DNA of 45,546 nt from Candidatus Woesearchaeota archaeon (GCA_964354995.1 CAYHBQ010000001.1:727-46272), one strand, 5' to 3'. Positions 461-39,952 are shown, counted from the first letter of the stretch. The notes: a model not told the origin generated them from the letters alone. Made by a program: numbers and translations.

Positions 461-3184
461 ATGGAAAACCTTTCTGTATCGTCAGAAGAACGGCTCATTG
501 GAGCACGAAAAGAGAAAATCATTTCATTTGCAAAACGGAATGTTTCTGCAATAGGGTATGTGTTTCTTGCCTTAGTGGTTTTTATAGCAATCAAAATTCG
601 CACGGCAAATCTTCCCGGGCTCAAGGATATAACCACGGGAGATTGGACACTTGGTCCTGATTTGGACCCTTTCTTGTTTCTTCGCTGGGCTAAATATATA
701 GTAGAAAACGGCAGCCTTATGGTCTTGGATACCATGCGATACGTCCCTCTCGGATTTGACACGTCTTACGAATTAAATCTTCACGTCTATCTGATGGTCT
801 GGTTTGATAAAATTGCCAGCCTATTCGGTTCGACTTCAATAACTCACTCTGCGGTCCTCTATCCTGTTTTCATGTTTGCGCTTTCAGTAATCGCTTTCTT
901 TTTCATGACGAGGATAATCTTCTTAAAACATATGGGCAAGTCATGGGCCACAACATCTGCGGTTATAGCCTCATTTTTGTTAACCGTCACTCCCGCATTG
1001 TTGCCCCGAACTATTGCAGGTATTCCTGAAAAAGAAGCAAGCGGAATTCTATTCTTATTTCTCGCATTCTATTTTTTCATGGCAGGTTGGGATGCGAAGA
1101 ATAAGACGTATAAGTATATCTTAGGTTTTCTCGCAGGGGCATCGACAGCGGTTATGGGTCTTGTGTGGGGGGGGTATCTGTACATCCTCATAACTATCGG
1201 GCCTCTTATCTTTTTTTCATTCGCATTAGGACAAATGGATCGAGACAGGAAATATTTCTACGCGACGTGGCTTGCCACCACCATGATTATTCTAGTCATA
1301 GGAACTAAACGATATCCTTTGTCGGAATTACTTTCTTCAACGACAACGCTCCCTGCTGTTTTCATGTTAGTGGTCCTCATCGTGGATTCGCTTATCCACG
1401 AAACCAGTCTGATGCGCCGAATGCCTCCCTATCGAATTTTTAATCTCCCTTCACCATTGCTTTCGCTTATTATCACTGTAGGGCTTGGTCTACTCTTTGC
1501 ACTCGTCTTTTTTGGGCCGGATTATATAGTCCACAACGTACTCGCCCTCAAAAAGTTTCTCATCACAACGGGAACTGACAGAGTAAGCGTTACGGTCGCA
1601 GAAAACAGACAGCCTTATTTCACGGAATGGGCTGCCAGCTTCGGACCCTTCTTTGCAAACTTCCCCTTGCTCTTCTGGATGTTTTTTGCGGGCTCAATCG
1701 TCGCGTTTTATCATGCAATCGCCTCATTCGACAAAAAATCTCGCATAATAATGACTGCAGCGTTTACATTTATGCTCATTTCGTTAGCCTTCAGCAGGTA
1801 CTCGCCTACAAGTCTTTTTAATGGGACCAATTTTGCAAGTCTCGCCTTCTACGCATTAGGTCTTCTCGTCTTTTTGGTGATTGGAGGAAAATACTACCTC
1901 AAGTATCATTCTACAAACGAACCCGATCGATTACGTAACGTTAATTTCAATTTCATGCTCTTACTCTGCTTCTTTGTTATCAGCATACTTTCGGCAAGAG
2001 GGGGCGTCAGACTCATCATGATGCTTGTGCCTGCCGCGTCAATATTGGGAGCATATATTGTGGTGGAAGTAGCACGCTGGACTCATGCATCTTATAAGTC
2101 CAAGTCTTCTTCAAAATATGTTTCAGCGTTTTGCGCTGCGCTTCTAATCTTGAGCCTATGCTTCGCGGGATATTCTTTTTATAACGCCTCGATGATATCT
2201 GCCCAAGGGTATATTCCCAGCATTTATACCCAGCAATGGCAAAAAGCAATGGCTTGGACACGAGACAATATCTCACAGGAGGCAGTCTTTGGCCATTGGT
2301 GGGACTATGGCTATTGGGTCCAAAGCATAGGCGAGCGCGCAACCGTTCTCGACGGAGGAAATGCAAAAGCGTACTGGAATCACATGATGGGAAGATATGC
2401 GCTCACGGGCCCGAATAATGAACAGGCGCTAGAATTCTTGTACGCCCACAAAACGACCCATTTTCTTATTGACCCTACCGATATTGGCAAGTACGGGGCT
2501 TTCTCAAGCATAGGTTCAGACAAAAATTATGATCGAACTAGCTTTATATCGACGTTCAATAAAGACCCAAATCAAGTTCTCGAAAAAAAGAATTCAACTG
2601 TTTTTGTTTATGTAGGTGGAATTCCAACCGATGATGATATCTTTTACATTCTCAACGGCACGCAAATCTTCTTACCAAAAGGGAACGCAGCACTCGGTGC
2701 GATTCTTCTAGAAAAAGATTCTACTACGGGAGAACTTACTCGTGCGCCTGACGCCGTTTTCATTTACAAAGGGAACCAGTATCTTATCCCCCTAAGGTAC
2801 ACATTTGATGAAAAACTAACTGACTTTAAGGAAGGACTGGATGCAGGCATATTTATCATGCCTCGACTCGTTAGTGGTACGAATGGACTCCAGATTCAAG
2901 ACGAAGGTTCACTTCTTTACCTCAGCAACCGCACAGTACATTCGCAGTTCGCACGTCTTTATCTATTCCAAGAAGAGAACGGCTTTTTCGAGCTCGTGCA
3001 TTCAGAAGATGACCCTCTCGTGACACAACTAAGGTTGAGTGTCCCCGATTTCAAGGGAGACTTTGTTAACTATGATACGGTGCGTGGCCCCATACGCATA
3101 TGGGAAATTAATTACCCTGCCGATATGACGGTCAAGAGCGAATACCTCTCGGAAGAATGGCCTGCAGAACTCTTCAGAACATAA
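461..3184 (+). CDS. aglB: Archaeal oligosaccharyltransferase AglB (STT3 family, GT-C)
   Basis: 907 aa with a multi-TM N-terminal half. Carries the diagnostic WWDYGYW motif (FGHWWDYGYWVQ) and a DxxK-like DIGK downstream. A TATA-like TTTATATA lies at 430..437. Confidence 0.9.
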   Translation: MENLSVSSEERLIGARKEKIISFAKRNVSAIGYVFLALVVFIAIKIRTANLPGLKDITTGDWTLGPDLDPFLFLRWAKYIVENGSLMVLDTMRYVPLGFDTSYELNLHVYLMVWFDKIASLFGSTSITHSAVLYPVFMFALSVIAFFFMTRIIFLKHMGKSWATTSAVIASFLLTVTPALLPRTIAGIPEKEASGILFLFLAFYFFMAGWDAKNKTYKYILGFLAGASTAVMGLVWGGYLYILITIGPLIFFSFALGQMDRDRKYFYATWLATTMIILVIGTKRYPLSELLSSTTTLPAVFMLVVLIVDSLIHETSLMRRMPPYRIFNLPSPLLSLIITVGLGLLFALVFFGPDYIVHNVLALKKFLITTGTDRVSVTVAENRQPYFTEWAASFGPFFANFPLLFWMFFAGSIVAFYHAIASFDKKSRIIMTAAFTFMLISLAFSRYSPTSLFNGTNFASLAFYALGLLVFLVIGGKYYLKYHSTNEPDRLRNVNFNFMLLLCFFVISILSARGGVRLIMMLVPAASILGAYIVVEVARWTHASYKSKSSSKYVSAFCAALLILSLCFAGYSFYNASMISAQGYIPSIYTQQWQKAMAWTRDNISQEAVFGHWWDYGYWVQSIGERATVLDGGNAKAYWNHMMGRYALTGPNNEQALEFLYAHKTTHFLIDPTDIGKYGAFSSIGSDKNYDRTSFISTFNKDPNQVLEKKNSTVFVYVGGIPTDDDIFYILNGTQIFLPKGNAALGAILLEKDSTTGELTRAPDAVFIYKGNQYLIPLRYTFDEKLTDFKEGLDAGIFIMPRLVSGTNGLQIQDEGSLLYLSNRTVHSQFARLYLFQEENGFFELVHSEDDPLVTQLRLSVPDFKGDFVNYDTVRGPIRIWEINYPADMTVKSEYLSEEWPAELFRT

Positions 3185-3223
3185 CTCCGACCTCTTTAAA
3201 AAGAAAGAAAGGCTACAAGTCCT

Positions 3224-4351
3224 ATGAAAATACTTGAATTAACGACCTATAGCGCAGGCGGTTGCGGAGTCTGGGCGCGCGTTTATAGGGAAGCTCAATT
3301 TTTCGCAGAACAGGGTCACCGAGTAGAAGTATTCTCGTCGGATTATATCAAAGGATCAAATGACCGAGCCCCTCGTCAAGAAAAAAGAGGAAGCGTTTTA
3401 ATAACGCGTTTTCCAGGCGTCAAACTGGGAGGTGAAAGTTTTACCTACTGGAACTTCAGACGCGAAGCACTAACGTATAAACCCGAAGTTATTATCGCCC
3501 ACGCCTATCGTCATACCCACACGACAAAAGCGCTTTCTATAGGGAAACAGTTAGGGATTCCTGTTTTTTTGGTCACCCATGCCCCCTTCGATAGGGCCAC
3601 AACTCGTTCGCGGTTAGCTAAAGTTGCCGTATTTGTATATGACTATTGCATAGGAAAGAGAACGCTTCCCCAATTCACAAAAGTAATTGCGATTACGCAC
3701 TGGGAAGTGCCCTTTCTTAGGAAGTTAGGTCTTATCGATAAAAAAATCGCGTATGTGCCCAACGGATTACCCGAGGAGTTTTTCACACCCTTGAAGAAAG
3801 GAGGAAAGGGAATCGTGTATACGGGCAGAATGGCCCCCATAAAAAATCTCGAGACCATCAGCAGCGCACTCTCTGTTCTACTATCTGAACAGGAAACTCT
3901 TCCTTCGGTTGTCTTTTTTGGCCCGGCAGAAAAAGAATATCTGGCCGCATTGCAAAATAGAATAAAAATCGATGGGTCAGAGATAACTATAATCAACAAG
4001 ACTTTCGGTCCAAGAGAACAGATTAACGAACTCGAAAAACGCGAAATCTTTATCCTTCCTTCTCTAAGCGAAGGGTTACCCCAATCTCTCTTAGAGGCGA
4101 TGGCTCGCGGAAAAATCGTCCTCGCCAGCAATAATAAAGGGAATAAAGATGTTATCAAAGATGGAAAAAACGGTTTTCTATTTCCTGTGGGGGATAAGAA
4201 ACGTCTTGCAGAACGCATTAAGTATATCACCCTTCTTTCTCAAAAGGGGAAAGAGAAAATAAAAAAATCTGCGCGTATAACTGCTGAGAACTATCGTTGG
4301 AAAGTGCTTGGAAACCGATTTTTATCGCTGATTAAGCTACATACGAAGTAG
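3224..4351 (+). CDS. Glycosyltransferase family 4 (GT-B, GT1/GT4 type)
   Basis: 375 aa with C-terminal EGLPQSLLEAMARGKIVLASN (E-x7-E type motif of GT4 enzymes). TTTAAAAA at 3195..3202 lies 21 nt before the ATG. Confidence 0.85.
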   Translation: MKILELTTYSAGGCGVWARVYREAQFFAEQGHRVEVFSSDYIKGSNDRAPRQEKRGSVLITRFPGVKLGGESFTYWNFRREALTYKPEVIIAHAYRHTHTTKALSIGKQLGIPVFLVTHAPFDRATTRSRLAKVAVFVYDYCIGKRTLPQFTKVIAITHWEVPFLRKLGLIDKKIAYVPNGLPEEFFTPLKKGGKGIVYTGRMAPIKNLETISSALSVLLSEQETLPSVVFFGPAEKEYLAALQNRIKIDGSEITIINKTFGPREQINELEKREIFILPSLSEGLPQSLLEAMARGKIVLASNNKGNKDVIKDGKNGFLFPVGDKKRLAERIKYITLLSQKGKEKIKKSARITAENYRWKVLGNRFLSLIKLHTK

Positions 4352-5018
4352 GATCGGGAATATTCGCCCAGTAAAATCCATGTTTGCGCAAGGCGCATGC
4401 CAAGCACGCCCCGCACTGGTACGTTCCCTCAGCATAACAACTCCAGGTCTTTTCAAAGTTAACACCCAGAAGCGCACCTTTGGATATGATATCTTCTTTA
4501 TTGGACTTAAGGAAAGGTGCACGAGTCACGAAGGGGGCTGCGCAAATGTCTCGTGTTAGTAAATTAATATCCTTCAGAAACAAGGTTCCTGCATCAGGGT
4601 AACTGTCACTTCCTTCGGCACCAAACCCGACAAATATATCACTTTTCACATGGGATGTTGTGTAGTCTTCTTCTGCAAGCGAAAGCGCATGAGCCATAAA
4701 GAGGAGATTCCTACAGGGCACATACCACTGTTTGCTTATACCCTTTGTATCTTTAAGTTCCTCTTTTCCCACCGAGCTGAAACGAGCTCGCGGTTTATGA
4801 ATAAGGGCGCTCGTTTTTAGATTAATTCGGACAAGCTTCAGTTCACACCCTAACTGACGAGCGTGATAAGACGCACAATTTTTTTCATGCGCCCACCCAT
4901 TCTGACCATAATCAAAAAAGAGCAAGAGCACTTTATCATAGTTCATTTTCTTTCGAACAAGGTACGCAGTGACCACACTATCTATTCCTCCAGAACAAAG
5001 AACCAATGCCTGTTCCAT
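4332..5018 (-). CDS. queC: 7-cyano-7-deazaguanine synthase QueC (PP-loop ATPase)
   Basis: MEQALVLCSGGIDSVV (SGGxDS PP-loop), FDYGQ, VPCRNLLF, YPD, and a C-terminal Zn cluster SCY...CGACLACALRKHGF. The start was moved to the ATG at 5018; the 62-aa upstream extension in the track has no support and would cover the promoter. Confidence 0.8.
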   Translation of the reverse strand: MEQALVLCSGGIDSVVTAYLVRKKMNYDKVLLLFFDYGQNGWAHEKNCASYHARQLGCELKLVRINLKTSALIHKPRARFSSVGKEELKDTKGISKQWYVPCRNLLFMAHALSLAEEDYTTSHVKSDIFVGFGAEGSDSYPDAGTLFLKDINLLTRDICAAPFVTRAPFLKSNKEDIISKGALLGVNFEKTWSCYAEGTYQCGACLACALRKHGFYWANIPDPTSYVA

Positions 5019-5039
5019 ATGTAACAAAAGGAAACAATC

Positions 5040-5047
5040 TTTATAAG
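5040..5047. promoter_or_regulatory. Shared bidirectional TATA box between queC (-) and the mini-aIF5A ORF (+)
   Basis: TTTATAAG sits at the centre of a 49-nt divergent intergenic region, about 25 nt from both start codons (5018 and 5068). Confidence 0.5.
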
Positions 5048-5067
5048 CCTGTAGACGTACTAGTTCC

Positions 5068-5262
5068 ATGAAGAAAAAAGCCAGTGAGATACGGGTAGGC
5101 GACTCGCTTATAGTCGGTGGCGAACACCTTAAGGTGTTGACGTGTGAGCTGTCAGAAACGAGTAAGCAAGGCGCGAAAAAATGTCGTCTCGAAGCACAAC
5201 GCACATCGGGAGAAAAAGTGGTTCTTATTCGTCCTGCAGATTACCCGCTTGAAGTCGCATGA
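5068..5262 (+). CDS. Stand-alone aIF5A N-terminal (SH3/KOW-like) domain paralogue, 64 aa
   Basis: Aligns end to end, about 40% identity by eye, with residues 8-67 of the aIF5A at 41888..42277 (VGGE, S-x-T-x-K-x-G-A-x-K-C-R-x-E-A). The stop overlaps the next ATG (ATGA at 5259..5262). Confidence 0.55.
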   Translation: MKKKASEIRVGDSLIVGGEHLKVLTCELSETSKQGAKKCRLEAQRTSGEKVVLIRPADYPLEVA

Positions 5263-6176
5263 TTGATGTTATTCTTACCTCTTATAACGAACCAAAGGCC
5301 ACATGCAAGGCCCTTGAATCTATTTTGGAACAGTCTGCAAGAAAAGATTTACAAGTCATTGTAGTCGACCCGTTTCCAGAAACTGAAGTTTTTCTAAAAT
5401 CTCAAATAAAAGATGCTCGATGGTCTTTTTTTCTCGACCCCGGGGAAGGAAAGGGATTCGCACTTAATATGCTCTTTCAGGAGCGAGCATCAAGCAACCC
5501 CCATGATATTTTTATTATGACTGACGGAGACGTCTTTCTTGACAAGGGGGCCATCGAGGCGATTATCACTGCGTTCAAGGATAAACGTGTCGGTTGTGTC
5601 GCAGGACATTCCGCGCCGCTCGAATCAAGAGAAACAATGTATGGATATTGGGCGCATCTGTTTATGGAGGGTATTGATAGAGTACGAGAGGGCTTCTCAA
5701 AAAGAAAGGTTTTTTTCGAGTGTTCGGGATATCTCTTTGCAATAAGAAAAGGAATCTTACTTGATTTCCCTACAGAGACCTCAGAAGACAGCGTAATTCC
5801 CTATCTTATCTGGAAAAAAGGACATCAAATAGCGTACGCGCAGAGGGCGCTCGTGTACGTGAAGAACCCAGAAAACTGGGCCGATTGGATTGCTCAGAAG
5901 GTTCGAAATATAAAAGCGCACGAAAGACTAAAAGAAATCGCTCCCGATATGCCTCGCACAAAGAGTTTTCTTAACGAAGTGAAACTTGGCACTCTTTTTG
6001 CATTGAAGTACCCAAAGACGGTTCGTGAACTATGGTGGACACTATGCTCTTTTGGTGCACGCCTCTATATCTACAAGAAAGCGTTCTCAGAAATGAAAAA
6101 AGGAAAGAAATACACCGATGGCTGGAGAGGAGAAGCCCTCACACATTCAACTAATCCTCTATCCGAGCATTCTTAA
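5259..6176 (+). CDS. Glycosyltransferase family 2 (GT-A)
   Basis: MIDVILTSYNEPKATCKALESILEQ N-terminus, then TDGD (DxD-like). 305 aa. Confidence 0.8.
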   Translation: MIDVILTSYNEPKATCKALESILEQSARKDLQVIVVDPFPETEVFLKSQIKDARWSFFLDPGEGKGFALNMLFQERASSNPHDIFIMTDGDVFLDKGAIEAIITAFKDKRVGCVAGHSAPLESRETMYGYWAHLFMEGIDRVREGFSKRKVFFECSGYLFAIRKGILLDFPTETSEDSVIPYLIWKKGHQIAYAQRALVYVKNPENWADWIAQKVRNIKAHERLKEIAPDMPRTKSFLNEVKLGTLFALKYPKTVRELWWTLCSFGARLYIYKKAFSEMKKGKKYTDGWRGEALTHSTNPLSEHS

Positions 6177-6573
6177 AAGAATTTAATCGGTCGCGCAACG
6201 CTTCCTCTGTGTTCACAATATCAACGGAAGAAAGAAGGATGGGGCTCAAGTAATCGACTGCTTCTTCGAGAGGCTCGTCGGTCTTCAATCCAATACACGG
6301 GATTCCTTGTGCATAAGCAAATCCTAGCTCCCATGCGGTTCCTGCGCCAACATGTAATCCTTCAAGCAACGCAACAACCACATCACATGTGCGCAAGCCT
6401 TCGAAAATATCTTTGTGAAATATAGCCTCTGCATTTTTTATTTCATAAAAGAGACCAACCTCACGATGAGGAAGGAATGTTTCAAACCCAAGGTTTTCAC
6501 ATAAGGCCGCAATTTCATTAAGCGATTCTCTTTCTGAACTCGTACTGAGCTTTCCCGCGATATAAATCCGCAT
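6151..6573 (-). CDS. Nucleoside 2-deoxyribosyltransferase-like protein (PF05014-like Rossmann fold)
   Basis: MRIYIAGKL...GAGTAWELGFAYAQGIPCIGL matches the NDT-family pattern (IY.AG ... G T.fE.G.A.a.g.P). The start was set at the ATG at 6573; the track extension overlaps the promoter. Confidence 0.6.
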   Translation of the reverse strand: MRIYIAGKLSTSSERESLNEIAALCENLGFETFLPHREVGLFYEIKNAEAIFHKDIFEGLRTCDVVVALLEGLHVGAGTAWELGFAYAQGIPCIGLKTDEPLEEAVDYLSPILLSSVDIVNTEEALRDRLNSFKNARIED

Positions 6574-6593
6574 GCAAGGAAGAAGGCCAATAG

Positions 6594-6601
6594 TTTTAAA
6601 A
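6594..6601. promoter_or_regulatory. Shared bidirectional TATA box between the NDT-like gene (-) and GT9 (+)
   Basis: Palindromic TTTTAAAA sits in the middle of a 49-nt divergent spacer, 21 nt before the ATG at 6623 and 20 nt from the ATG at 6573. Confidence 0.5.
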
Positions 6602-6622
6602 CATGATGGTCGTAGCTCAACC

Positions 6623-7621
6623 ATGCAAATAATAGTGATAAAATTGGGGGCGGCAGGAGACGTTTTAAGGACGCTCCCTCTGATGCGAGCTATACGAGAT
6701 GCCCACACAGGAGCAGAAGTTACACTTGTTACAAAAGAGGATATTGTAGAACTGGTTAAGGGAATCGATTACATACATCATGTCAAAACAATCCCCTTGC
6801 GCGCAGGCTTAGAGGCAGACATGCTCTATAACTTTGATACTGATGAAATTGCACTTGAAATAGCAACACACACTCCCGCAAAAAGGAAATATGGTTTTTA
6901 TGCGCTTGATGGGTATCCGGCCGCATACAACACGGGTGCAGAATATTACCTGAACACTATATTCGATGACGAATTAAAGAAAAAGAATACTCTAACTTAC
7001 CAGGAGATGATGTTTGCGGCTGCCGAACTACCGGTTACAAAAGAGGTTTATCATCTACCCATAGAATCCTCTGCCAAAAACTATGCGAACCGATTCGTCG
7101 AAAGCAGGCTCTCCGGAAGGGGACGCATAATAGGAATCCATATGGGCGCGTCATCTCGTTGGCCTTCAAAAGTTTGGTCATTATCATACGTTGAAGATTT
7201 TATAAAAAAGGCTTCGACACAGGGATATGAAACTATTCTTTTCGGGGGGCCAAACGAAATAAATGAGCATGAGTTACTTTCTAAAAAACTTGTTTCAGAA
7301 AACATACCCTTTGCGCGCAACAATCCCCAGAACTCTAAACAAGAATTCCTTGCGTTATTGGAAAAATGCGATGTAGTTATATGTTCTGACAGTTTTGCAC
7401 TTCACGCCGCAATCGGGCTGCAGAAAAAGATACTCGCTTTATTTTTTTGTACAAGCCCCAACGAACTCGAAGGTTATGGGCTGGTGACAAAGATAATTTC
7501 TCCTAAACTTTACGAGTTTTTCCCAGAAAAAAGCGATGTTTTTGATAAAGGGCTCGTTGAGAGCATATCCGTCGAACAGGTTTTAACCGAGCTTAAAAAA
7601 TTGGTACCTCCGAAGATATAA
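6623..7621 (+). CDS. Glycosyltransferase family 9 (heptosyltransferase-like)
   Basis: MQIIVIKLGAAGDVLRTLPLMRAI N-terminus and VVICSDSFALHAAIGLQKKILALF near the C-terminus. Both are typical of GT9 ADP-heptose transferases. Confidence 0.75.
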   Translation: MQIIVIKLGAAGDVLRTLPLMRAIRDAHTGAEVTLVTKEDIVELVKGIDYIHHVKTIPLRAGLEADMLYNFDTDEIALEIATHTPAKRKYGFYALDGYPAAYNTGAEYYLNTIFDDELKKKNTLTYQEMMFAAAELPVTKEVYHLPIESSAKNYANRFVESRLSGRGRIIGIHMGASSRWPSKVWSLSYVEDFIKKASTQGYETILFGGPNEINEHELLSKKLVSENIPFARNNPQNSKQEFLALLEKCDVVICSDSFALHAAIGLQKKILALFFCTSPNELEGYGLVTKIISPKLYEFFPEKSDVFDKGLVESISVEQVLTELKKLVPPKI

Positions 7622-7645
7622 ATAGGCAAAATCGTATGATAAAAA

Positions 7646-9181
7646 ATGCCTTCTAAATCAGCAGAAGCGGTTAAACTTTGGCTTAAGGATGGCCATAATG
7701 CTCTCTTTGTTTTGATATTGATACTTTCTTTTCTCGTTAGGCTTTATTTTTTCGCCAACGCACACAGCCAACCCCTTTGGTGGGATGAGGCCGAGTATAT
7801 GGCTACTGCAAAACATTGGGCATTTGGCGTACCTTACGATATCAATCCACAGCGACCGCCCCTTTTTCAGTTGGCAGCAATACCCTTCCTCTGGTTCGGT
7901 CTTGGCGAAGGGTCACTCAAGTTCTTCCTCGTCCTCCTTCCCTCAATTTGTACGATAGGGCTTATTTATTTCGTTGGACGAGAACTATTTGGAAAAAGAA
8001 TCGCGCTTATCGCAACAGCCGCATCATCGGTAGTGTGGTCTTTTCTTTTCTGGAGTGTTCGATTTCAGCCAGATTTCTTTTCCTTAAGCTTTCAGCTTCT
8101 CTCAGTTCTCTTTTTCTGGAAAACGTTTAAGGAAGGGAAAAAATCCTTCGCAATCCTTACAGGGCTGTTCATCGCACTCGGGTTCTACTTTAAGATTTCT
8201 GCATTACTTGTCCCATTGTCATTTTTAATATTTATTTTATTCAAGGACGGGTTTTTATTCATCAAAAACAAAAATTATTGGATAATCTTTTTCTCATTTC
8301 TCATTTCACTAATACCTTTCGGCATATGGCAGTATGTTCTCTTCGGAAATCCCGTCGCGTTCGCACCCTCTTACATCGGCGGAACCGGAATTGGACAAGG
8401 ATGGGAGTTAGGATGGATGGCTCTGAACTTTTTTTACCAATTTCCAAAACCTCTTTTCTTTGTTCTATTCTTAGCAGGCGTTGCTCTCTCCCTGTTGCAC
8501 ATAGCGCTCTCGGCCGACTTATACTTCAAAAATAAAGAACGGAGACTCGATTCATCCCTATTTTCGCTAATATTGTTGCTTGTGATGACTTGCTTCTATG
8601 TATTTTACATACGGGGAATAATTGAAGACAGATGGGTCTTCCTCATGGTTCCGTTCATCATGTATTTTTCGGCAAAGGGGCTCGATGCAATCGCAGAAAA
8701 GACGAAGCAACTACACCCCCACGCCCCGCTTATAGTAATCCTTGTCGCGCTTATCCTTCTTGCGTACGTGCAAGTACAGCATGCACATTCGTTGATCGAA
8801 TTGAAAAAGACATCGTACCTCCCCGTTAAAGAAGCGTCGTTATGGATTAAGCAAAACTCTGCCCCCGAAGATACAATACTTAGCAATTCTTATACGCAAG
8901 CAACTGCTTACGCCGAAAGGAAAATTCTGCCTTATCCTGCGCTTGTGAGAAATGAAAGCGATAGTTATTCATACATGCCTTCGAGTAAAGAGATGCTTGA
9001 CAAACTCGTAGCTGAGAATCATCCGACATATTTAATGGTTTCCATATTCGAGAGACATCCCGATTGGACGCAAGAATGGTTGAACGAGAATCAGCTTAGA
9101 CTAAATCCCGTACAAGCCTATTTTGCGGATGCGCAAAAGACACAAGCAACATTAATAGTCTACGAGATAAACTACGTTTAG
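7646..9181 (+). CDS. GT-C membrane glycosyltransferase, GT39/PMT_2 (ArnT-like) family
   Basis: 511 aa, polytopic, with PLWWDEAEYM near the first loop as in ArnT/PMT_2 proteins. TATAAATA at 7617..7624 lies 21 nt before the ATG. Confidence 0.7.
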   Translation: MPSKSAEAVKLWLKDGHNALFVLILILSFLVRLYFFANAHSQPLWWDEAEYMATAKHWAFGVPYDINPQRPPLFQLAAIPFLWFGLGEGSLKFFLVLLPSICTIGLIYFVGRELFGKRIALIATAASSVVWSFLFWSVRFQPDFFSLSFQLLSVLFFWKTFKEGKKSFAILTGLFIALGFYFKISALLVPLSFLIFILFKDGFLFIKNKNYWIIFFSFLISLIPFGIWQYVLFGNPVAFAPSYIGGTGIGQGWELGWMALNFFYQFPKPLFFVLFLAGVALSLLHIALSADLYFKNKERRLDSSLFSLILLLVMTCFYVFYIRGIIEDRWVFLMVPFIMYFSAKGLDAIAEKTKQLHPHAPLIVILVALILLAYVQVQHAHSLIELKKTSYLPVKEASLWIKQNSAPEDTILSNSYTQATAYAERKILPYPALVRNESDSYSYMPSSKEMLDKLVAENHPTYLMVSIFERHPDWTQEWLNENQLRLNPVQAYFADAQKTQATLIVYEINYV

Positions 9182-9220
9182 TTTCCTAATGTTTAAATAC
9201 GAATTAAGGCAACATCGCAC

Positions 9221-11047
9221 ATGTGCGGTATAACCGGTTTTACCTGGGCCGATTCTTCGTTAATCAAGAAGATGACTCAAGTCATTAAGCATAGGGGTCC
9301 GGACGATGTGGGGCTCCATATAGCTTCAGGAATATCTCTGGGACATCGAAGGCTAAGCATCATTGACTTGTCCCCAAAGGGACACCAACCCATGTTCAAT
9401 GAAGATAGAAAAATAGTTATAACTTTCAACGGAGAGATTTGGAACTATAAAAAACTGAAAGCAGACCTTGTAGAAAAAGGGCACCTATTTCGAGGAGCAT
9501 CTGATACAGAGGTCATAGTGCATGGTTATGAGTCTTACGGAGAAAAAATTTGTTCTATGCTTGAAGGCATGTTTGCCTTCGCACTTTACGATGCAAAACA
9601 GAGAAGGCTCCTTCTCGCAAGGGACAGACTTGGTAAAAAACCGCTTTATTATACAGAAACAAAGAAAGGATTACTGTTTGCGTCAGAAATAAAATCGCTC
9701 GCCGTCGATTCCATTCCTCTTGTTCTTGATAACGAGACCCTCTCGGACTATCTCGCCCAGCGATTCTCGCCGAAAGACAAGACAATGTTTAATAAAATAA
9801 AAAAAGTACTTCCGGGAAGTTACGTCTCCTATAAGGACAAAAAAATAGAGTCGAAGAAATACTATGCCCTCCCCGAGTTTAACGTACGAAACGAACCGAG
9901 CATAAAAAAAGCAGATTCGTTAATCAAGGATGCAATTCAAAAAAGACTTATGTCAGATGTACCCATAGGAGTTTTTCTCTCAGGAGGTCTCGATTCAAGT
10001 GCAATCGTGGCATATATGTCCCAGATGTCTTCTAACATAAAGACCTTTTCGGTCGCTTTTAATAGCAAAGTAGACGAATCGAAGTATGCCCGAATTATCG
10101 CAGAAAAATTCAAGACAGAACATCACGAAATTAGAGTAGACTCTGATCTTCTACACTATCTTCCTGAAGTAATCTGGCATCTCGATGAGCCACTCGCAGA
10201 CCCTGCTTGCCTTCCCACGTATTTTCTTTGCCGAGAAGTATCCAAACATGTAAAAGTTGCGTTATCAGGAGAAGGAGGGGACGAAATTTTTGGAGGATAT
10301 CAAAGTTTTAATTACATCCCTGAGATAAAGATTATCCAAAATTTTCCAAGGTCAATTAGATCAGCTCTTGCAGCGTATGCGTTTGCACTCGCTAAATACA
10401 AAACGTATCCTGAAAAACACAAGTTTCTCGCAATTGCTAATATTTTAAAGAAAACCTCTTTGAAAGAAGCCTTTAAAGAACTTTTTTATTTTGCATTTGA
10501 CACGAAAGAGAGATTAGAGATATTTTCAAAGGCATTAGAAGAAGATGCCTTTGATCGTATCTTTGCAGAGTCTTCTTCATTAGATGAAGCGGCACAATCC
10601 TATTATTTTAAGGAATGGTTGCCTAACGACTTGCTCATGAAAGCAGACAAAATGAGTATGGCCTTCGGGTTGGAGGTGAGAACTCCCTTTCTTGATCAGG
10701 AACTTCTCGAATATTTTTCTGGCTTAGACCCGAGAGAGAAACGGAAGAGAAAACTTTTCAAACAAGTCGTTGCGAACTATCTTCCTCAAGAAATTCTAAA
10801 CAAAAAGAAACAGGGTTTTACACTTCCTCTTTTCGAATGGTTCGGAAGTCGAGAAACGTTAGAACGAGTTCGACCCTTCCTTGAAAGACTGAAGAAGAGA
10901 GAAATCTTTTCCGAGAAAGTAATTGAAAACCTTTTGCAAAATCCGACTGCATTTAAAAACGAACATAAAATTTGGGTGTTGCTCAATTTTGAGATTTGGT
11001 ACGAACTTTATATAGAAAAAATTCCCTTGAAGGAGATAAAACTATGA
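9221..11047 (+). CDS. asnB: Asparagine synthase (glutamine-hydrolysing), AsnB family amidotransferase
   Basis: MCGITGF Ntn-amidotransferase start and SGGLDSS PP-loop. 608 aa. Confidence 0.9.
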   Translation: MCGITGFTWADSSLIKKMTQVIKHRGPDDVGLHIASGISLGHRRLSIIDLSPKGHQPMFNEDRKIVITFNGEIWNYKKLKADLVEKGHLFRGASDTEVIVHGYESYGEKICSMLEGMFAFALYDAKQRRLLLARDRLGKKPLYYTETKKGLLFASEIKSLAVDSIPLVLDNETLSDYLAQRFSPKDKTMFNKIKKVLPGSYVSYKDKKIESKKYYALPEFNVRNEPSIKKADSLIKDAIQKRLMSDVPIGVFLSGGLDSSAIVAYMSQMSSNIKTFSVAFNSKVDESKYARIIAEKFKTEHHEIRVDSDLLHYLPEVIWHLDEPLADPACLPTYFLCREVSKHVKVALSGEGGDEIFGGYQSFNYIPEIKIIQNFPRSIRSALAAYAFALAKYKTYPEKHKFLAIANILKKTSLKEAFKELFYFAFDTKERLEIFSKALEEDAFDRIFAESSSLDEAAQSYYFKEWLPNDLLMKADKMSMAFGLEVRTPFLDQELLEYFSGLDPREKRKRKLFKQVVANYLPQEILNKKKQGFTLPLFEWFGSRETLERVRPFLERLKKREIFSEKVIENLLQNPTAFKNEHKIWVLLNFEIWYELYIEKIPLKEIKL

Positions 11048-12063
11048 GCTCAAAGAAAGGCCTTCCAAAAGTCAGTTTTATCCTCGGAATTCTTAACGCC
11101 GAACGAACACTTGAAGAATGTTTGAAAGGAATCTTCATGCAAGACTACCCAAGGGATCTTTTCGAGGTAATTATCATCGATGGAGGCTCAACGGACAAGA
11201 CTCTTCAGGTCATTGATTCATTTATGCGTAAAGAAAGGAACATTTCTCTCCTCCATAATCCAAAAAAACTTTCAGAAGGCCGAGGTATGAGCAAAGACAT
11301 GGGTATAAAAAAATCTAAAGGAGATATTGTAATTCTCTTAGACCATGATAATCTTATTTCAGACCCTCAATGGCTAAGAGGGATATTGCGGCCCTTCAGA
11401 GATAAACAAGTTATGGCCTCCCAATCGCTTTTAGAGTTCAGGAAGGAGGACTCAAATTTTCTTAAATACATCAACGCAGCAGGAGTTGAAGACCCCTTTG
11501 CTATACCTTATTCCCTCGTTGCGCAGGTGCAATTATATCCCCATAAGTTTCGATTAGTTGAAGATGTTTATTATGTCCATAAGCTTAATCCAAATTCGGT
11601 TCTTTTTGGTGGAGCGAATGGCTGTGCGTTCGTAAAAGACGTTTTTGAAAAAATCGGAGGGTATACGAGAGACGTGGATGTTTTTGCAAAAATGGCTGAA
11701 CTTCGTATGCTTGTTGCAGTCCCTAAAAACGTCAGATTATATCACAAAACTGCAAGCAATCTGTGGTCCTTTATGAAGAAAAAAGGGCTTTATTTCTATC
11801 GATTTATAAATAAAGAATATGCTGAAAAAGATTTCCAATGGGTTAAACCAGGGCTCGCAAACAAACTTAGATTTTTCCTTATGGTCGCGTCAAATCTTTC
11901 GTTCGTGCTCCCAAGCGTCTTGGCTTTACAAAGGACATTTAAAACAGGGAGGTTCTTTTGGATTTTACACCCATTTTATGTCTTCTTCGTTACACTCGAG
12001 TATGGATTAATAACCCTCCTAAAAATCAAGAACTTCTTCTCATATGCCCGCGTCAAATCTTAA
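11044..12063 (+). CDS. Glycosyltransferase family 2
   Basis: KVSFILGILNAERTLEECL...IIIDGGSTDKT...LDHDN. The ATG at 11044 overlaps the asnB stop (ATGA). Confidence 0.8.
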   Translation: MSSKKGLPKVSFILGILNAERTLEECLKGIFMQDYPRDLFEVIIIDGGSTDKTLQVIDSFMRKERNISLLHNPKKLSEGRGMSKDMGIKKSKGDIVILLDHDNLISDPQWLRGILRPFRDKQVMASQSLLEFRKEDSNFLKYINAAGVEDPFAIPYSLVAQVQLYPHKFRLVEDVYYVHKLNPNSVLFGGANGCAFVKDVFEKIGGYTRDVDVFAKMAELRMLVAVPKNVRLYHKTASNLWSFMKKKGLYFYRFINKEYAEKDFQWVKPGLANKLRFFLMVASNLSFVLPSVLALQRTFKTGRFFWILHPFYVFFVTLEYGLITLLKIKNFFSYARVKS

Positions 12064-13165
12064 CAGCACGTACTGCTATATCTAGTCCGCTTCTGTTTAT
12101 TTGTCGATAGCTGCGATTAGCCCTTCGGCTGAACGTAAGAAAGTTTTTGCTTTTTCCAAGGAAGTACTTGTAGAACAAGTGGACGTAGAGGTTAGCCAAG
12201 AGCGTCCAGCACTCAACCACGTTAAAATGTTCTATTTTAAAGCCAGTCTTTTTCATCAAGTCGCGTACAGACTGGTTCGTATACTGGCGCTCGTGTTGCA
12301 TATAGGTAACAGGATGTAGGTAGTGCAGAAAGTGATTATTGGGCACAGAGATAATAAGCTTACCCCCTGGTTTTAAGAGGGAACGAATGCCCATCAGAAC
12401 TATATCCTCGTTCTTTAAATGTTCGAGCACTTCACACATAACTATCTTGTCGTAATAATACTTTTTTAGAACATTATCTTTGGTAATATCCCCTTCAACC
12501 AGCTTTGTTTTGTGTAAATAATGGGCTGCCTTTTTAAGTTTTGGACCATCTATATCCACGGTCCAACATTCTTTTACTTTATTTTCAAGTATCATTTCGA
12601 TTTCAGGAATATTAGAAATGCCAATATTCAAAACCTTATCTGTTTTTTGCGGATTAACGAGATTGACAAAATAGTCAATACGATCCTTTCCAAGAGGTGC
12701 AATTGACTTAAAAAAGGCGCGATAGTTGCTTCGCAACTCCTTGATGTTCGCAAGGTCAATCTTCGGTACTGTAGCATATCTTTTCAAAAGTTCAGGAGTT
12801 ATTTTTTTAACATCTGTAAAGCAAGAAATTCCCGTTTTCTTTGCAAAGAACTCGCCAAATTCTACTTGATGATTGTTAATATGTTCCCCATATTTTTTTT
12901 GCCGAGGGACCGTAATAACGGGCTTTTGATATTTCATAGAAACCTCTATGAGCGACGTAGCCGATTGGACAATGACCATCCTCGCTTGACGATAATACTC
13001 ATCCAAGGTAGGCGCAAAAGCAAAAAATTCAATATTTTTTGGCTTGTAAGTGCCTGCACCAACCTGAGCAACTATTTTTTCTTTAATATAGGGTGCGATT
13101 TCATCAATTCTTCGGATAAGTCTATCGAATTGTCCGTCATGTGTCCCGACTGCAACAAAAATCAT
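12053..13165 (-). CDS. Alg13-like (Glyco_tran_28_C / PssE-like) domain fused to a class I methyltransferase-like domain
   Basis: N-terminal MIFVAVGTHDGQFDRLIRRIDE. C-terminal half has VMCEVLEHL...LLKPGGKLIISVPN (Methyltransf_11-like). The ATG at 13165 overlaps the Alg14-like stop (ATGA). Confidence 0.7.
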   Translation of the reverse strand: MIFVAVGTHDGQFDRLIRRIDEIAPYIKEKIVAQVGAGTYKPKNIEFFAFAPTLDEYYRQARMVIVQSATSLIEVSMKYQKPVITVPRQKKYGEHINNHQVEFGEFFAKKTGISCFTDVKKITPELLKRYATVPKIDLANIKELRSNYRAFFKSIAPLGKDRIDYFVNLVNPQKTDKVLNIGISNIPEIEMILENKVKECWTVDIDGPKLKKAAHYLHKTKLVEGDITKDNVLKKYYYDKIVMCEVLEHLKNEDIVLMGIRSLLKPGGKLIISVPNNHFLHYLHPVTYMQHERQYTNQSVRDLMKKTGFKIEHFNVVECWTLLANLYVHLFYKYFLGKSKNFLTFSRRANRSYRQINRSGLDIAVRAVKI

Positions 13166-14423: not shown

Positions 14424-14474
14424 GTATTCCGGTATAGAAAAGCGTTTTTAAAACTACCTAGAACAAGCTAGAAT

Positions 14475-39901: not shown

Positions 39902-39923
39902 TACTCACTCTGATACGAGAAAG

Positions 39924-39931
39924 GTTATAAA
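39924..39931. promoter_or_regulatory. Shared bidirectional TATA box between the wHTH gene (-) and the CARF-like gene (+)
   Basis: GTTATAAA sits at the centre of a 51-nt divergent spacer, 21 nt before the ATG at 39953 and 22 nt from the ATG at 39901. Confidence 0.5.
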
Positions 39932-39952
39932 GCTACCTCCGCCCACGGTAGC

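What the first reader, a model, noticed from the sequence alone, without database searches (positions are those of the whole stretch)
4332..6176. Mini-aIF5A paralogue translationally coupled to a GT2 glycosyltransferase and sharing one TATA box with queC
The 64-aa ORF at 5068..5262 aligns along its whole length, about 40% identity by eye, with the N-terminal SH3/KOW-like domain of the genuine aIF5A at 41888..42277 (shared VGGE and S-x-T-x-K-x-G-A-x-K-C-R-x-E-A). It has no C-terminal OB domain. The hypusine loop SKTGKHG becomes SETSKQG, so the modified Lys is kept but the flanking Gly and His are changed. Its stop overlaps the ATG of a GT2 glycosyltransferase (ATGA, 5259..5262), and its TATA box (5040..5047) is equidistant from divergent queC. 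In bacteria the equivalent EF-P loop is modified by neighbour-encoded enzymes, for example the rhamnosyltransferase EarP or EpmA/B. The inference is that this is a paralogue whose tip residue receives a different modification, possibly glycosyl, or that it acts as a decoy or regulator. I know of no described stand-alone aIF5A N-domain with a dedicated GT.
Basis: partly seen in the sequence, partly recalled or inferred. Interest (0 to 1): 0.7.

Follow-up and report, generated by a model that had tools for sequence, protein, structure and literature searches.

The report
Mini-IF5A protein with QueC–glycosyltransferase module
A 64-residue copy of only the lysine-loop domain of translation factor aIF5A is a real, strongly conserved protein of small DPANN archaea, always encoded in one fixed gene module with a membrane-type glycosyltransferase and a QueC-like enzyme; this points to an undescribed and testable role, most likely as a protein whose loop lysine is chemically modified.

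Summary
ORF 5068..5262 encodes a 64-aa protein that is 42% identical (E 2e-12) to the N-domain of the window's full-length aIF5A. Its predicted fold is that domain (TM 0.85 to PDB 1bkb).

It belongs to an undescribed family: at least 224 clusters at 90% identity, all about 64 aa, from Pacearchaeota/Woesearchaeota MAGs. The family is under purifying selection (dN/dS 0.03-0.16). The loop E-x-S-x-x-G-K-[Q/H]-G-x-x-K-x-R is 97-100% invariant.

In 15 of 15 forward look-ups and 80 of 84 reverse loci the gene sits directly upstream of one orthologous GT2, with stop/start spacing of -4 to +1 nt in 49 of 66 loci. It is divergent from a QueC-like gene across a 49-53-nt spacer with one central TTTATAA. 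NDT-like, GT9, PMT_2 and GT4 genes complete the core module.

The GT2 is hyaluronan/cellulose-synthase-like, not EarP-like. The QueC-like enzyme keeps the deazaguanine-binding residues but lacks two canonical QueC motifs.

Best reading (confidence about 0.4): a dedicated acceptor or carrier protein whose tip Lys is modified by module enzymes, possibly by Cap9-like deazaguanylation followed by glycosylation. Function is untested.

The parts
5068..5262 (+). mini-IF5A: 64-aa stand-alone aIF5A N-domain (SH3/KOW-like beta-barrel) paralogue, probably leaderless
   Evidence: Family of at least 224 clusters. dN/dS 0.03-0.16.
5146..5187 (+). Codons for E27..R40, the near-invariant hairpin loop E-x-S-x-x-(G/S)-K-(Q/H)-G-x-x-K-x-R. 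The tip Lys K33 is codon 5164..5166, the counterpart of the hypusinated Lys.
   Evidence: Alignment to aIF5A. Conservation over 204 members: E27 99%, S29 100%, K33 99%, G35 97%, K38 100%, R40 99%. The loop has the lowest pLDDT in the model.
5019..5067 (.). 49-nt divergent spacer between the queC-like ATG (5018..5016) and the mini ATG (5068), acting as a bidirectional promoter
   Evidence: Spacer is 49-53 nt in 53 of 59 distinct loci, and 50 nt in 35 of them.
5040..5046 (.). Single central TATA box TTTATAA, about 21 nt from each start codon
   Evidence: Present in 53 of 53 spacers of 49-53 nt. The 21/7/22 geometry holds in 35 of 53. Flanks AAAC/GTTT are often symmetric.
4332..5018 (-). QueC-like PP-loop ATPase (228 aa), non-canonical clade: SGGIDS, YGQ(x)5E, VPCRN, YPDA, C(x)7CxxCxxC
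   Evidence: Pfam QueC E 5e-40. TIGR00364 scores 108.9, below the 150.3 cut-off. PDB QueC 3bl5 and Cap9 9nto. Motifs. Present in 59 of 62 loci.
5259..5262 (+). ATGA: the mini stop codon overlaps the GT2 start codon
   Evidence: Spacing is -4 in 22, -1 in 5, 0 in 2 and +1 in 20 of 66 distinct loci.
5259..6176 (+). GT2 glycosyltransferase (305 aa), synthase-like GT-A with D, DGD, SED and QKxRN motifs and C-terminal interface helices
   Evidence: Pfam. 743 homologues, the best 120 at 57% identity or more and all about 300 aa. AF2 pLDDT 88.9. Foldseek top hits are HAS, PcManGT, BcsA and Chs1.
6151..6573 (-). Nucleoside 2-deoxyribosyltransferase-family protein (140 aa, start ATG 6573..6571). It keeps GAGTAWELG (the catalytic Glu motif) and converges on the GT2 3' end.
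   Evidence: Pfam PF05014 E 2e-16. PDB 7m5h. Present in about 51 of 50 loci with room. Start read.
6574..6622 (.). Second 49-nt divergent spacer (NDT-like to GT9) with a central TTTTAAAA at 6593..6600
   Evidence: Read. The GT9 start at 6623 is inferred from orthologue N-termini.
6572..7621 (+). GT9 (heptosyltransferase-family) glycosyltransferase. The likely true start is 6623.
   Evidence: Pfam Glyco_transf_9 E 9e-14. NCBIfam heptosyltransferase families. Present in 40 of 42 loci.
7646..9181 (+). PMT_2 (GT-C, ArnT/PMT-like) membrane glycosyltransferase
   Evidence: Pfam E 1e-15. Present in 31 of 37 loci.
3224..4351 (+). GT4 glycosyltransferase, the upstream flank of the module, converging on queC-like
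   Evidence: Pfam. Present in 30 of 39 loci.
41888..42277 (-). Canonical two-domain aIF5A (129 aa, GKHG loop), the donor lineage of the paralogue. It shares the KCRIEA motif with mini.

Best explanation
SHOWN. ORF 5068..5262 encodes a folded, selected, stand-alone copy of the aIF5A N-domain. It keeps the hypusine-type beta-hairpin and its tip lysine. It is a fixed component of a chromosomal module of Pacearchaeota/Woesearchaeota:
- a QueC-like gene, divergent across a 50-nt single-TATA spacer;
- mini followed by a stop/start-coupled, synthase-like GT2;
- a convergent NDT-like gene;
- a divergent GT9 (often with NUDIX or HldE) and PMT_2.

INFERRED. Mini is not a translation factor. It is a dedicated acceptor or carrier protein that presents Lys33 at the tip of a rigid hairpin to module enzymes, as IF5A does for deoxyhypusine synthase and EF-P domain I does for EarP or EpmA.

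Most likely chemistry, step by step:
1. The QueC-like enzyme adenylates 7-carboxy-7-deazaguanine and, like Cap9/QatC, uses a protein amine instead of ammonia. Here the amine would be the Lys33 epsilon-amine. The product is an amide-linked 7-deazaguanine.
2. The NDT-like enzyme and/or the glycosyltransferases (GT2 first, being made 1:1 with mini) add a (deoxy)ribosyl or sugar group to the tethered base at the membrane interface.

Neither chemical step has been demonstrated.
For: Identity of the protein:
- Homology and fold.
- A full aIF5A coexists in the window, so mini is an extra paralogue.
- The family is broad and constrained: 48 clusters at 50% identity, almost all 62-84 aa, with almost no full-length aIF5A among the hits; at least 224 clusters at 90% identity; dN/dS 0.03-0.16.

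Functional site:
- The most conserved part is the loop, with K33 at 99%.

Linkage to the module:
- mini-GT2 adjacency in 15 of 15 forward look-ups, down to 34% identity, and in 80 of 84 reverse loci.
- Stop/start spacing -4 to +1 in 49 of 66 loci.
- QueC-like in 59 of 62 loci, with a fixed spacer and TATA box.
- One lineage lost mini and QueC-like together, while its GT2 stayed intact in 91-92 of 93 conserved columns.

The QueC-like enzyme:
- It keeps the Y/D/R residues that hold the deazaguanine in Cap9.
- It lacks the canonical His (it has YGQ(x)5E, the Cap9-type spacing) and the Cys of YPDC.
- It is below the NCBIfam QueC cut-off.
- A bona fide queuosine-precursor transporter (TIGR00697, 179.6 bits) is inserted between QueC-like and mini in two lineages.

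Precedent:
- Cap9 and QatC modify a protein encoded next door, and the authors note that the free N9 could accept ribose.
- DHS needs only the N-domain of eIF5A.
- EarP was crystallised with EF-P domain I alone (5wxk).
Against: - There is no biochemical, proteomic or transcript evidence.
- The GT2 is of the membrane-interface synthase class, whose acceptors are normally sugars or lipids.
- The GT2 is fully conserved in the one lineage that lacks mini and QueC-like, so it can work without them, unless they moved elsewhere in that genome.
- Cap9 and QatC target an N-terminal glycine on a flexible tail, not a lysine. Mini starts with MKKK.
- The QueC-like protein is close enough to canonical QueC (E 3e-24 to 3bl5; NCBI names it QueC) that it may simply make preQ0.
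- The H/Q switch next to the Lys shows no co-varying column in GT2, QueC-like or NDT-like.
- The mirror-tree signal is weak and favours GT2 (r 0.55) over QueC-like (r 0.29).
- The 50-nt single-TATA divergent promoter is generic in this genome.
- The module lies inside ordinary glycan or N-glycosylation clusters.
Confidence: 0.4

Rival explanations
1. Non-covalent accessory or regulatory subunit of the synthase-like GT2, comparable to the small partners PgaD/IcaD of PgaC/IcaA. Mini would bind the GT2 at the membrane interface. Its conserved basic loop would act in trans, for example by gating or completing the acceptor or nucleotide-sugar site. QueC-like is then merely co-regulated.
For: - Tight, conserved stop/start coupling implies 1:1 synthesis.
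- mini was found with the GT2 directly downstream in every lineage looked up or scanned.
- The highest distance correlation is mini-GT2, r 0.55.
- The GT2 is HAS/BcsA-like but lacks the channel and has QKxRN instead of QxxRW, so it may need a partner.
Against: - The GT2 in the mini-less lineage keeps 91-92 of 93 conserved columns.
- Near-absolute invariance of a single tip Lys within a hypusine-type loop is more typical of a reactive or modified residue than of a docking surface.
- No co-varying GT2 column was found.
- This reading does not explain the joint loss of mini and QueC-like.
Confidence: 0.25
2. A translation-directed paralogue. Mini would still be (deoxy)hypusinated by DHS, at least the GKHG forms. 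It would bind the ribosomal E-site or PTC region or tRNA as a minimal factor or competitor of aIF5A, tuning translation of the adjacent glycan genes or of the whole cell.
For: - The loop is almost the canonical archaeal E-x-S-K-x-G-K-H-G-x-A-K-x-R, and 40% of members keep K-H-G.
- DHS contacts only the N-domain.
- The closest relative is the organism's own aIF5A, with which it shares KCRIEA.
Against: - Ribosome binding of eIF5A uses nearly the whole N-domain plus part of the C-domain, and mini lacks the OB domain.
- Obligatory operon linkage to a GT2 in more than 60 lineages has no translational rationale.
- A full aIF5A is present.
- No DHS gene is in the window. The rest of the genome was not seen.
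Confidence: 0.12
3. A nucleic-acid or tRNA-binding adaptor in 7-deazaguanine metabolism. QueC-like would be a canonical preQ0 synthase working on salvaged CDG, with the YhhQ-type transporter and the NDT-like enzyme as salvage hydrolase. Mini would recruit the GT2 or other enzymes to tRNA carrying archaeosine or a related base, by analogy with glycosylated queuosine.
For: - The QueC-like enzyme is near-canonical.
- TIGR00697 transporter genes lie in the locus in two lineages.
- The IF5A/EF-P N-domain contacts the tRNA acceptor end (established knowledge).
- Mini is basic.
Against: - No tgt, arcS, queD or queE gene lies in any of about 95 loci.
- The GT2 is of a membrane-interface type.
- The module is embedded among surface-glycan genes.
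Confidence: 0.08
4. Conserved neighbourhood without a shared function. Mini has an unrelated role and is held next to the GT2 and queC only by compact-genome architecture and the shared promoter.
For: - 50-nt single-TATA divergent promoters are generic in this genome.
- DPANN genomes are compact.
- The flanks of the module vary.
Against: The order, orientation and spacing persist while the proteins diverge to 34-40% identity and the surrounding genes are reshuffled. The reverse test gives 80 of 84.
Confidence: 0.05

Closest known systems
aIF5A/eIF5A N-terminal domain (Pfam PF21485) and its hypusination by deoxyhypusine synthase
   Same: Same fold (TMq 0.85). Same hairpin with S..GK(H/Q)G..K.R and an aligned tip Lys. 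The N-domain alone is what DHS recognises.
   Different: No OB domain. An acidic residue replaces the canonical Lys after the Ser. Q replaces H in 57% of members. It has a family-specific C-terminal IIRPxDYP motif. It is encoded in a glycan/QueC module rather than with translation genes. The window protein scores below the Pfam and NCBIfam cut-offs.
EF-P domain I with neighbour-encoded modifiers (EarP rhamnosyltransferase; EpmA/EpmB lysylation)
   Same: A tip residue of the same hairpin is modified by enzymes often encoded nearby. Domain I alone suffices for EarP binding (5wxk and 6j7m appear among the fold hits).
   Different: The tip is Lys, not Arg. The adjacent GT is a GT-A synthase-like GT2, not the GT-B EarP. 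No EpmA/B homologues were seen. Mini is a separate extra protein, not the factor itself.
Protein deazaguanylation systems: Cap9 with CD-NTase (type IV CBASS) and QatC with QatB
   Same: A QueC-family enzyme is encoded beside a small or partner protein. The SGGxDS, RN and YxD deazaguanine-binding residues are kept. It has the Cap9-like YxQ(x)5E spacing. A base-handling partner enzyme is present: Cap10 (TGT-like) there, NDT-like here.
   Different: The known substrates are N-terminal glycines on flexible tails in bacterial anti-phage operons. Here the candidate amine is a hairpin Lys, the host is archaeal, the context is glycan biosynthesis, and there are no PADLOC hits for the partners. Not tested biochemically.
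QueC-family 'Cluster 4' of Libby et al. 2026 (QueC-like with a PfkB-PF05014 fusion, Proteobacteria)
   Same: Co-occurrence of a QueC-like enzyme with an altered YGQ...E motif and an NDT-family (PF05014) protein, sometimes with PfkB.
   Different: The Cys signature differs (CH(x)5CxxCxGCxK there, SCY..CGxCLxCxLR here). The taxon differs. No IF5A-like protein or GT is reported there.
EfpL (YeiP), the bacterial EF-P paralogue
   Same: A paralogue of the factor with an altered loop and its own regulation (8s8u among the fold hits).
   Different: EfpL keeps all three domains and acts on the ribosome. Mini is a single domain in a non-translational operon.
Minimal cellulose-synthase-like GT2 (PcManGT, PDB 6yv7) and hyaluronan synthases
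   Same: Best structural matches of the coupled GT2 (E 2e-13 to 8e-12). It has the D, DxD, (S/T)ED and Q..R motif series.
   Different: No transmembrane channel. QKxRN replaces QxxRW. It has a conserved C-terminal Y.DGWR...STKPLD tail. It is always preceded by mini.

Membership tests
IF5A-like N-terminal domain superfamily (PF21485 / EF-P KOW-like) | Sequence profile match at the curated threshold | tested here: inconclusive
   The window protein scores 16.8 bits against a gathering score of 27.1. Many family members carry precomputed PF21485 hits. The family profile hits aIF5A 1bkb at E 1e-6. Pairwise E to the window's own aIF5A is 2e-12.
IF5A-like N-terminal domain superfamily (PF21485 / EF-P KOW-like) | Six-stranded SH3/KOW-like barrel with a protruding beta3-beta4 hairpin | tested here: met
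   AF2 pLDDT 88.7 with six strands. The Foldseek top 50 are all aIF5A/eIF5A/EF-P, with TMq 0.79-0.91.
Translation factor aIF5A (NCBIfam NF003076 / TIGR00037 equivalogs) | Two-domain architecture with a C-terminal OB fold (PF01287) | tested here: not met
   64 aa, ending at the domain boundary. NF003076 scores 24.3 against 138; TIGR00037 scores 15.7 against 75.45. The genuine aIF5A of the window has both domains.
Translation factor aIF5A (NCBIfam NF003076 / TIGR00037 equivalogs) | Hypusination loop G-K-H-G with the modifiable Lys | tested here: inconclusive
   The Lys is kept in 99% of members. The window has S-K-Q-G. 40% of the family has G-K-H-G. Modification state is unknown.
Translation factor aIF5A (NCBIfam NF003076 / TIGR00037 equivalogs) | Modified by deoxyhypusine synthase; binds the ribosomal E site | not testable with these tools
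   No DHS gene in the 45.5-kb window. Whole genomes could not be scanned.
EF-P/EarP-type glycosylated factor | Arg at the hairpin tip and an EarP (GT-B) rhamnosyltransferase | tested here: not met
   The tip is Lys. The neighbouring GT is a GT-A, HAS/BcsA-like.
Canonical QueC (7-cyano-7-deazaguanine synthase) | Signature motifs SGGxDS, YxQxHxxE, VPxRN, YPDC and C(x)8CxxCxxC (Libby et al. 2026) | tested here: not met
   SGGxDS and VPCRN are present. YGQ(x)5E lacks the conserved His in most orthologues. YPD(T/A) replaces YPDC. The Cys spacing is variable. TIGR00364 scores 108.9 against 150.3. The Pfam QueC gathering score is passed.
Canonical QueC (7-cyano-7-deazaguanine synthase) | Genomic linkage to queD, queE or tgt | tested here: not met
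   None in about 95 loci. In their place are mini, GT2, NDT-like and GT9.
Protein deazaguanylation (Cap9 / QatC type) | QueC-fold ligase retaining deazaguanine-binding Tyr/Asp/Arg and the PP-loop | tested here: met
   The Y-P-D, R-N and SGGxDS residues are invariant in 8 orthologues, matching Cap9 Y115/D117/R86/S18/S23. PDB Cap9 is hit at E 2e-16. PADLOC PDLC00911 scores 79.5 bits.
Protein deazaguanylation (Cap9 / QatC type) | Partner protein with a flexible N-terminal tail ending in Gly after Met removal | tested here: not met
   The mini N-terminus is MKK(K/Q)A. The candidate amine would be Lys33 instead.
Protein deazaguanylation (Cap9 / QatC type) | Covalent 7-deazaguanine adduct on the partner | not testable with these tools
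   Needs intact-mass or peptide mass spectrometry.
Processive GT2 synthases (HAS/BcsA/Chs/NodC) | D, DxD, (S/T)ED and QxxRW motifs plus a transmembrane channel | tested here: not met
   The D, DGD and SED motifs are present. QKxRN replaces QxxRW. Only three C-terminal helices follow, with no channel.

The most novel reading that the evidence does not exclude
An archaeal protein-modification pathway of a new kind. A duplicated IF5A N-domain would serve as a dedicated scaffold. Its hairpin lysine would be amide-linked to 7-carboxy-7-deazaguanine by a QueC-like ligase, which would be the first side-chain, non-defence, archaeal deazaguanylation. The tethered base would then be ribosylated or glycosylated by the NDT-like enzyme and the GT2/GT9 enzymes, giving a nucleobase-glycan-protein conjugate, or a protein-bound intermediate of a glycosylated deazapurine, at the membrane of DPANN cells.
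Probability: 0.2. Interest if true: 0.9.

Novelty: new variant of a known kind. Interest (0 to 1): 0.72.

Why it matters
IF5A/EF-P is the textbook case of a protein whose single hairpin residue carries an exotic, dedicated modification. QueC-family enzymes have only recently been shown to write nucleobases onto proteins. Here the two themes meet.

A stand-alone hairpin domain has been duplicated away from the ribosome. In hundreds of DPANN lineages it is locked to a QueC-like enzyme, a base-transferase-like protein and several glycosyltransferases.

If the lysine is modified, this would extend deazaguanylation, or IF5A-type modification, to a new residue, a new domain of life and a non-immune context. 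If it is not, the family is still a clean example of a translation-factor domain recruited as a subunit of a membrane glycosyltransferase.

Either way, a family currently labelled 'hypothetical protein' or 'EF-P/IF5A' gets a precise hypothesis that can be tested in E. coli. The QueC annotation in these genomes is also flagged as doubtful.

Tried and rejected
1. Spurious ORF or split aIF5A gene. Rejected: more than 200 intact homologues of 62-66 aa, dN/dS of 0.16 or less, and a full aIF5A in the same window.
2. GT2 as an EarP-like enzyme. Rejected on fold. A sequence search of the PDB with the GT2 gave nothing, and a profile search gave only weak GT-A hits.
3. Anti-phage or viral origin. PADLOC matched only the QueC-like protein, and PHROGs matched only the QueC-like and NDT-like proteins; mini and the GT2 matched nothing in either. 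No relatives were found on IMG/VR contigs.
4. Covariation between the H/Q loop state and partner-protein columns, to identify the interacting enzyme. No column scored above 0.62 in GT2, QueC-like or NDT-like, and the higher scores in PMT_2 and GT4 rest on 4-6 sequences. This was a dead end.
5. Mirror-tree correlations. They are weak (0.27-0.55) and not decisive.
6. Metagenome scan with the broad mini alignment A2. It failed because the alignment has no stretch conserved enough. The GT2 alignment was used instead.
It was repeated with database homologues.
8. The genome-contig scan used too narrow a pattern and returned only one true locus plus a bacterial EF-P-like hit.
9. Loop divergence (SKQG) as the defining feature. 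Rejected: GKHG forms share the same module.
10. The shared TATA box as proof of functional linkage. Downgraded: the same 21/7/22 geometry occurs at the aIF5A/FKBP pair and at a third pair in the window.

Full report
**1. The observation**

The 64-aa ORF at 5068..5262 (+) exists as described. BLASTP against the window's two-domain aIF5A (41888..42277, minus strand) gives 25/60 identities, E = 2e-12. The alignment covers residues 5-63 of the small protein and 8-67 of aIF5A, which is exactly the N-domain.

Curated profiles see the protein only weakly:
- Pfam IF5A-like_N scores 16.8 bits against a cut-off of 27.1.
- NCBIfam IF-5A gives E 1.9e-5, far below the equivalog cut-offs, as expected for half a protein.

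Other evidence is clear:
- A profile of the family hits Pyrobaculum aIF5A (1bkb) at E 1e-6.
- The AlphaFold2 model (pLDDT 88.7, six strands, lowest confidence in the loop) matches only aIF5A/eIF5A/EF-P domain I among its top 50 PDB hits. TMq is 0.85 to 1bkb and 0.87 to the isolated EF-P domain I bound to EarP.

The stop codon overlaps the ATG of a GT2 (ATGA, 5259..5262).

By homology the queC-like start is ATG 5018..5016, not the upstream GTG of the mechanical ORF. The divergent spacer is therefore 5019..5067 (49 nt), with TTTATAA at 5040..5046.

**2. It is a family, not an accident**

- A word-indexed search found nine 63-64-aa homologues at 55-100% identity.
- An exhaustive HMM search of 1.84 billion cluster representatives found 48 clusters at 50% identity. 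Almost all are 62-84 aa. They rank ahead of canonical aIF5A, which appears almost only as fragments.
- A profile search found at least 224 clusters at 90% identity.

Named sources are Pacearchaeota, Woesearchaeota and 'Nanoarchaeota' MAGs. NCBI calls these proteins hypothetical, and JGI calls them 'EF-P/IF5A'.

Over 204 distinct members, E27, S29, K33, G35, K38 and R40 are 97-100% invariant. The residue after the tip Lys is Q in 57% and H in 40%.

Seven close pairs give dN/dS of 0.03-0.16.

The Cys in K-C-R-I-E-A is shared with the window's own aIF5A and with DPANN aIF5A fragments, but not with the Pyrobaculum or Pyrococcus proteins in the alignments. This suggests a duplication within this lineage (inference).

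**3. Context**

Window 461..16752 is a glycan/N-glycosylation cluster: STT3/AglB, GT4, GT2s, Alg13/14-like genes, a flippase, a GPT and AsnB.

Forward look-ups of 15 lineages, down to 34% identity with the window protein, show the same core:
- QueC-like (minus strand);
- mini and GT2 (plus strand);
- NDT-like (minus strand; plus strand in one lineage);
- GT9, often fused to or followed by NUDIX (plus strand);
- PMT_2.

Occasional extras are an HldE-like kinase/adenylyltransferase, a B12-radical SAM enzyme, and, between QueC-like and mini in two lineages, a transporter. That transporter passes the equivalog cut-off for 'queuosine precursor transporter' (TIGR00697, 179.6 bits against 50.95).

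The reverse test scanned metagenomes with a GT2 alignment. It found 274 relatives, of which 80 loci were kept.
- 80 of 84 loci with at least 230 nt upstream of the GT2 carry mini directly upstream.
- 59 of 62 loci with at least 1 kb upstream carry QueC-like.

The exceptions are:
- One lineage (L025, L026, L029) lacks both mini and QueC-like but keeps GT2, NDT-like and GT9. Its GT2 is unchanged in 91-92 of 93 conserved columns.
- One locus has mini-GT2 but no adjacent QueC-like.
- One locus has a truncated GT2.

Clustering all neighbours gives these core frequencies:

| Gene | Loci with the gene / loci with room |
|---|---|
| GT2 | 68/68 |
| NDT-like | about 51/50 |
| GT9 | 40/42 |
| PMT_2 | 31/37 |
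| GT4 | 30/39 |

No relatives occur on viral contigs.

**4. Fine structure**

The spacing from the mini stop to the GT2 start is -4 in 22, -1 in 5, 0 in 2 and +1 in 20 of 66 distinct loci. Co-translation is therefore a conserved feature.

The queC-like/mini spacer is 49-53 nt in 53 of 59 distinct loci. Every one of these carries a central TTTATAA-type box. In 35 of 53 the box lies 21 nt from one ATG and 22 nt from the other, with A-rich, often symmetric flanks (consensus TAATAAaCTTTATAAGTTT). With the box centred about 25 nt from each ATG, both transcripts are probably leaderless (inference from standard archaeal promoter geometry).

The same 21/7/22 arrangement links canonical aIF5A with an FKBP-type PPIase (42278..42327). 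A similar one occurs at 39901/39953 and between NDT-like and GT9 (6574..6622). The architecture is thus generic for this genome. It shows co-regulation of queC-like and mini-GT2 but does not by itself prove a shared function.

**5. The partners**

*QueC-like enzyme.* It is close to QueC: Pfam E 5e-40, and a profile hits 3bl5 at E 3e-24. It also matches Cap9 (9nto, E 2e-16; PADLOC 79.5 bits). Compared with the canonical signature defined by Libby et al. (PMC13082051):
- It keeps SGGxDS, VPCRN and the zinc cysteines.
- It has YGQ(x)5E in place of YxQxHxxE. Most orthologues have no His, and the spacing is the same as in the Cap9 variant.
- It has YPD(T/A) in place of YPDC.
- It falls below the NCBIfam QueC cut-off, although NCBI names orthologues QueC.
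- The Tyr, Asp and Arg that hold the deazaguanine in the Cap9 structure are conserved.

*GT2.* It is very conserved, with 57-68% identity across lineages. Its model (pLDDT 88.9) is closest to hyaluronan synthases, PcManGT, BcsA and chitin synthase. It has the D, DGD and SED motifs and QKxRN in place of QxxRW, but no channel. I therefore read it as a membrane-interface enzyme.

*NDT-like protein.* It keeps the GAGTAWELG motif containing the catalytic Glu of the family (the motif assignment is from my own knowledge).

**6. Interpretation**

What is shown:
- a selected, stand-alone IF5A N-domain with an intact hypusine-type loop;
- obligatory co-transcription, and probably co-translation, with one GT2;
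- co-regulation with a non-canonical QueC-like enzyme;
- membership in a seven-gene core module.

What is inferred: the domain is used for what it is known to do well, which is to insert a lysine-tipped hairpin into an enzyme. Three precedents support this. DHS contacts only the N-domain of eIF5A (PMC10042821). EarP binds EF-P domain I alone. Cap9 and QatC are QueC-family ligases that attach 7-carboxy-7-deazaguanine to an amine of a protein encoded next door, leaving N9 free for possible ribosylation (10.1101/2025.04.06.647259 and PMC13279940).

My preferred model is that mini is an acceptor or carrier protein. Lys33 would be acylated by QueC-like, and the adduct would then be elaborated by NDT-like and the GTs. 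I put about 0.4 on 'covalently modified acceptor of module enzymes', and about 0.2 on the specific deazaguanylation-plus-glycosylation chemistry.

The joint loss of mini and QueC-like in one lineage, and the queuosine-precursor transporter inserted between them in two others, fit this model.

Points against it:
- the GT2 is of the synthase type and survives intact without mini in one lineage;
- a lysine acceptor, rather than an N-terminal glycine, has no precedent;
- the QueC-like enzyme is near-canonical;
- no covariation signal was found.

The main rival is a non-covalent subunit of the GT2 (0.25). Next come a ribosome- or DHS-directed paralogue (0.12), a tRNA adaptor in deazaguanine salvage (0.08) and mere neighbourhood (0.05).

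**7. Novelty**

Full-text searches found no paper that connects DPANN archaea with IF5A. A 2026 review of proline-stalling translation factors does not mention stand-alone aIF5A N-domains. A 2026 survey of the QueC family does not mention an IF5A or GT neighbourhood.

Pfam's 'IF5A-like_N' already implies that the domain occurs outside IF5A. Two eukaryote-like proteins with tandem copies turned up here.

I rate the finding as a new variant of a known kind: an IF5A/EF-P-type hairpin domain with neighbour-encoded enzymes. It could prove categorically new if the predicted chemistry is confirmed.

Noticed in passing
window 42278..42327 (between aIF5A 41888..42277 minus strand and FKBP-type PPIase 42328..43002 plus strand); also 39902..39952: Canonical aIF5A and an FKBP-type prolyl isomerase are divergent across a 50-nt spacer with one central TTTATAA in the same 21/7/22 geometry as queC/mini. 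A third pair has a 51-nt spacer with GGTTATAAAG. The single-TATA, double-leaderless divergent promoter therefore seems to be a general architecture of this genome. The pairing of a polyproline factor with a prolyl isomerase is itself suggestive.
   Followed up: partly
window 6574..6622: NDT-like (ATG 6573..6571) and GT9 (likely ATG 6623) are also divergent across 49 nt with a central TTTTAAAA. The module is therefore two back-to-back divergent units whose inner genes (GT2 and NDT-like) converge and overlap at 6151..6176.
   Followed up: partly
P0041 (707 aa) and P0048 (1434 aa): Large, low-complexity, eukaryote-like proteins each contain two tandem IF5A-like_N domains (PF21485, 91.5 and 73.9 bits) that keep SKTGKHGS. 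P0048 also has a faint VIT hit. This is another non-IF5A use of the hypusine-loop domain.
   Followed up: partly
P0018 (84 aa): The protein consists of a GT2 N-terminus (MINVIITSYREP...DPFPEVE) joined to mini residues 27-64 at an 'EVE' microhomology. It is probably an assembly or recombination chimera of the two adjacent genes.
   Followed up: no
L010 5307..5969 and L011 5278..5952: A TIGR00697 queuosine-precursor transporter (YhhQ/Vut_1) gene is inserted between QueC-like and mini in two lineages. This splits the usual 50-nt spacer.
   Followed up: yes
L009-L012 (GT9-NUDIX fusions), L013 6903..7307 (separate NUDIX), L012 8976..10382 and L013 2490..3479: The module's GT9 is fused to, or followed by, a NUDIX hydrolase in several lineages. 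HldE-like ADP-heptose synthesis genes lie alongside in two lineages. This suggests an ADP-activated sugar donor.
   Followed up: partly
L025, L026 (4300..4900) and L029: One lineage has replaced QueC-like and mini with a gene for a large surface protein with Tyr/Gly repeats, directly upstream of an otherwise unchanged GT2/NDT-like/GT9 block.
   Followed up: yes
P0155, P0163, P0168, L093 4105..4320, L094 3677..3892: Some family members carry a 6-7-residue insertion in the hairpin loop (for example ..AGKSSIKDKKIARKCR..) that adds further lysines.
   Followed up: no
L073 339..536: This mini has a foreign N-terminal 24 residues and a GTG start, but a normal loop and C-terminus. It may be a rearrangement or an assembly artefact.
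   Followed up: no
window 12053..13180 and 13162..13644: An Alg13-like GT28 C-terminal domain is fused to a SAM methyltransferase domain, next to an Alg14-like gene.
   Followed up: no
L013 97..2493: The GT4 upstream of the module is about 800 aa, with duplicated GT4 domains and a faint intein-splicing hit.
   Followed up: no
window 4332..5204 and 6151..6708 (mechanical ORFs): Both minus-strand ORFs run upstream to GTG codons and so appear to overlap mini and GT9. Homology places the true starts at 5018 and 6573.
   Followed up: yes
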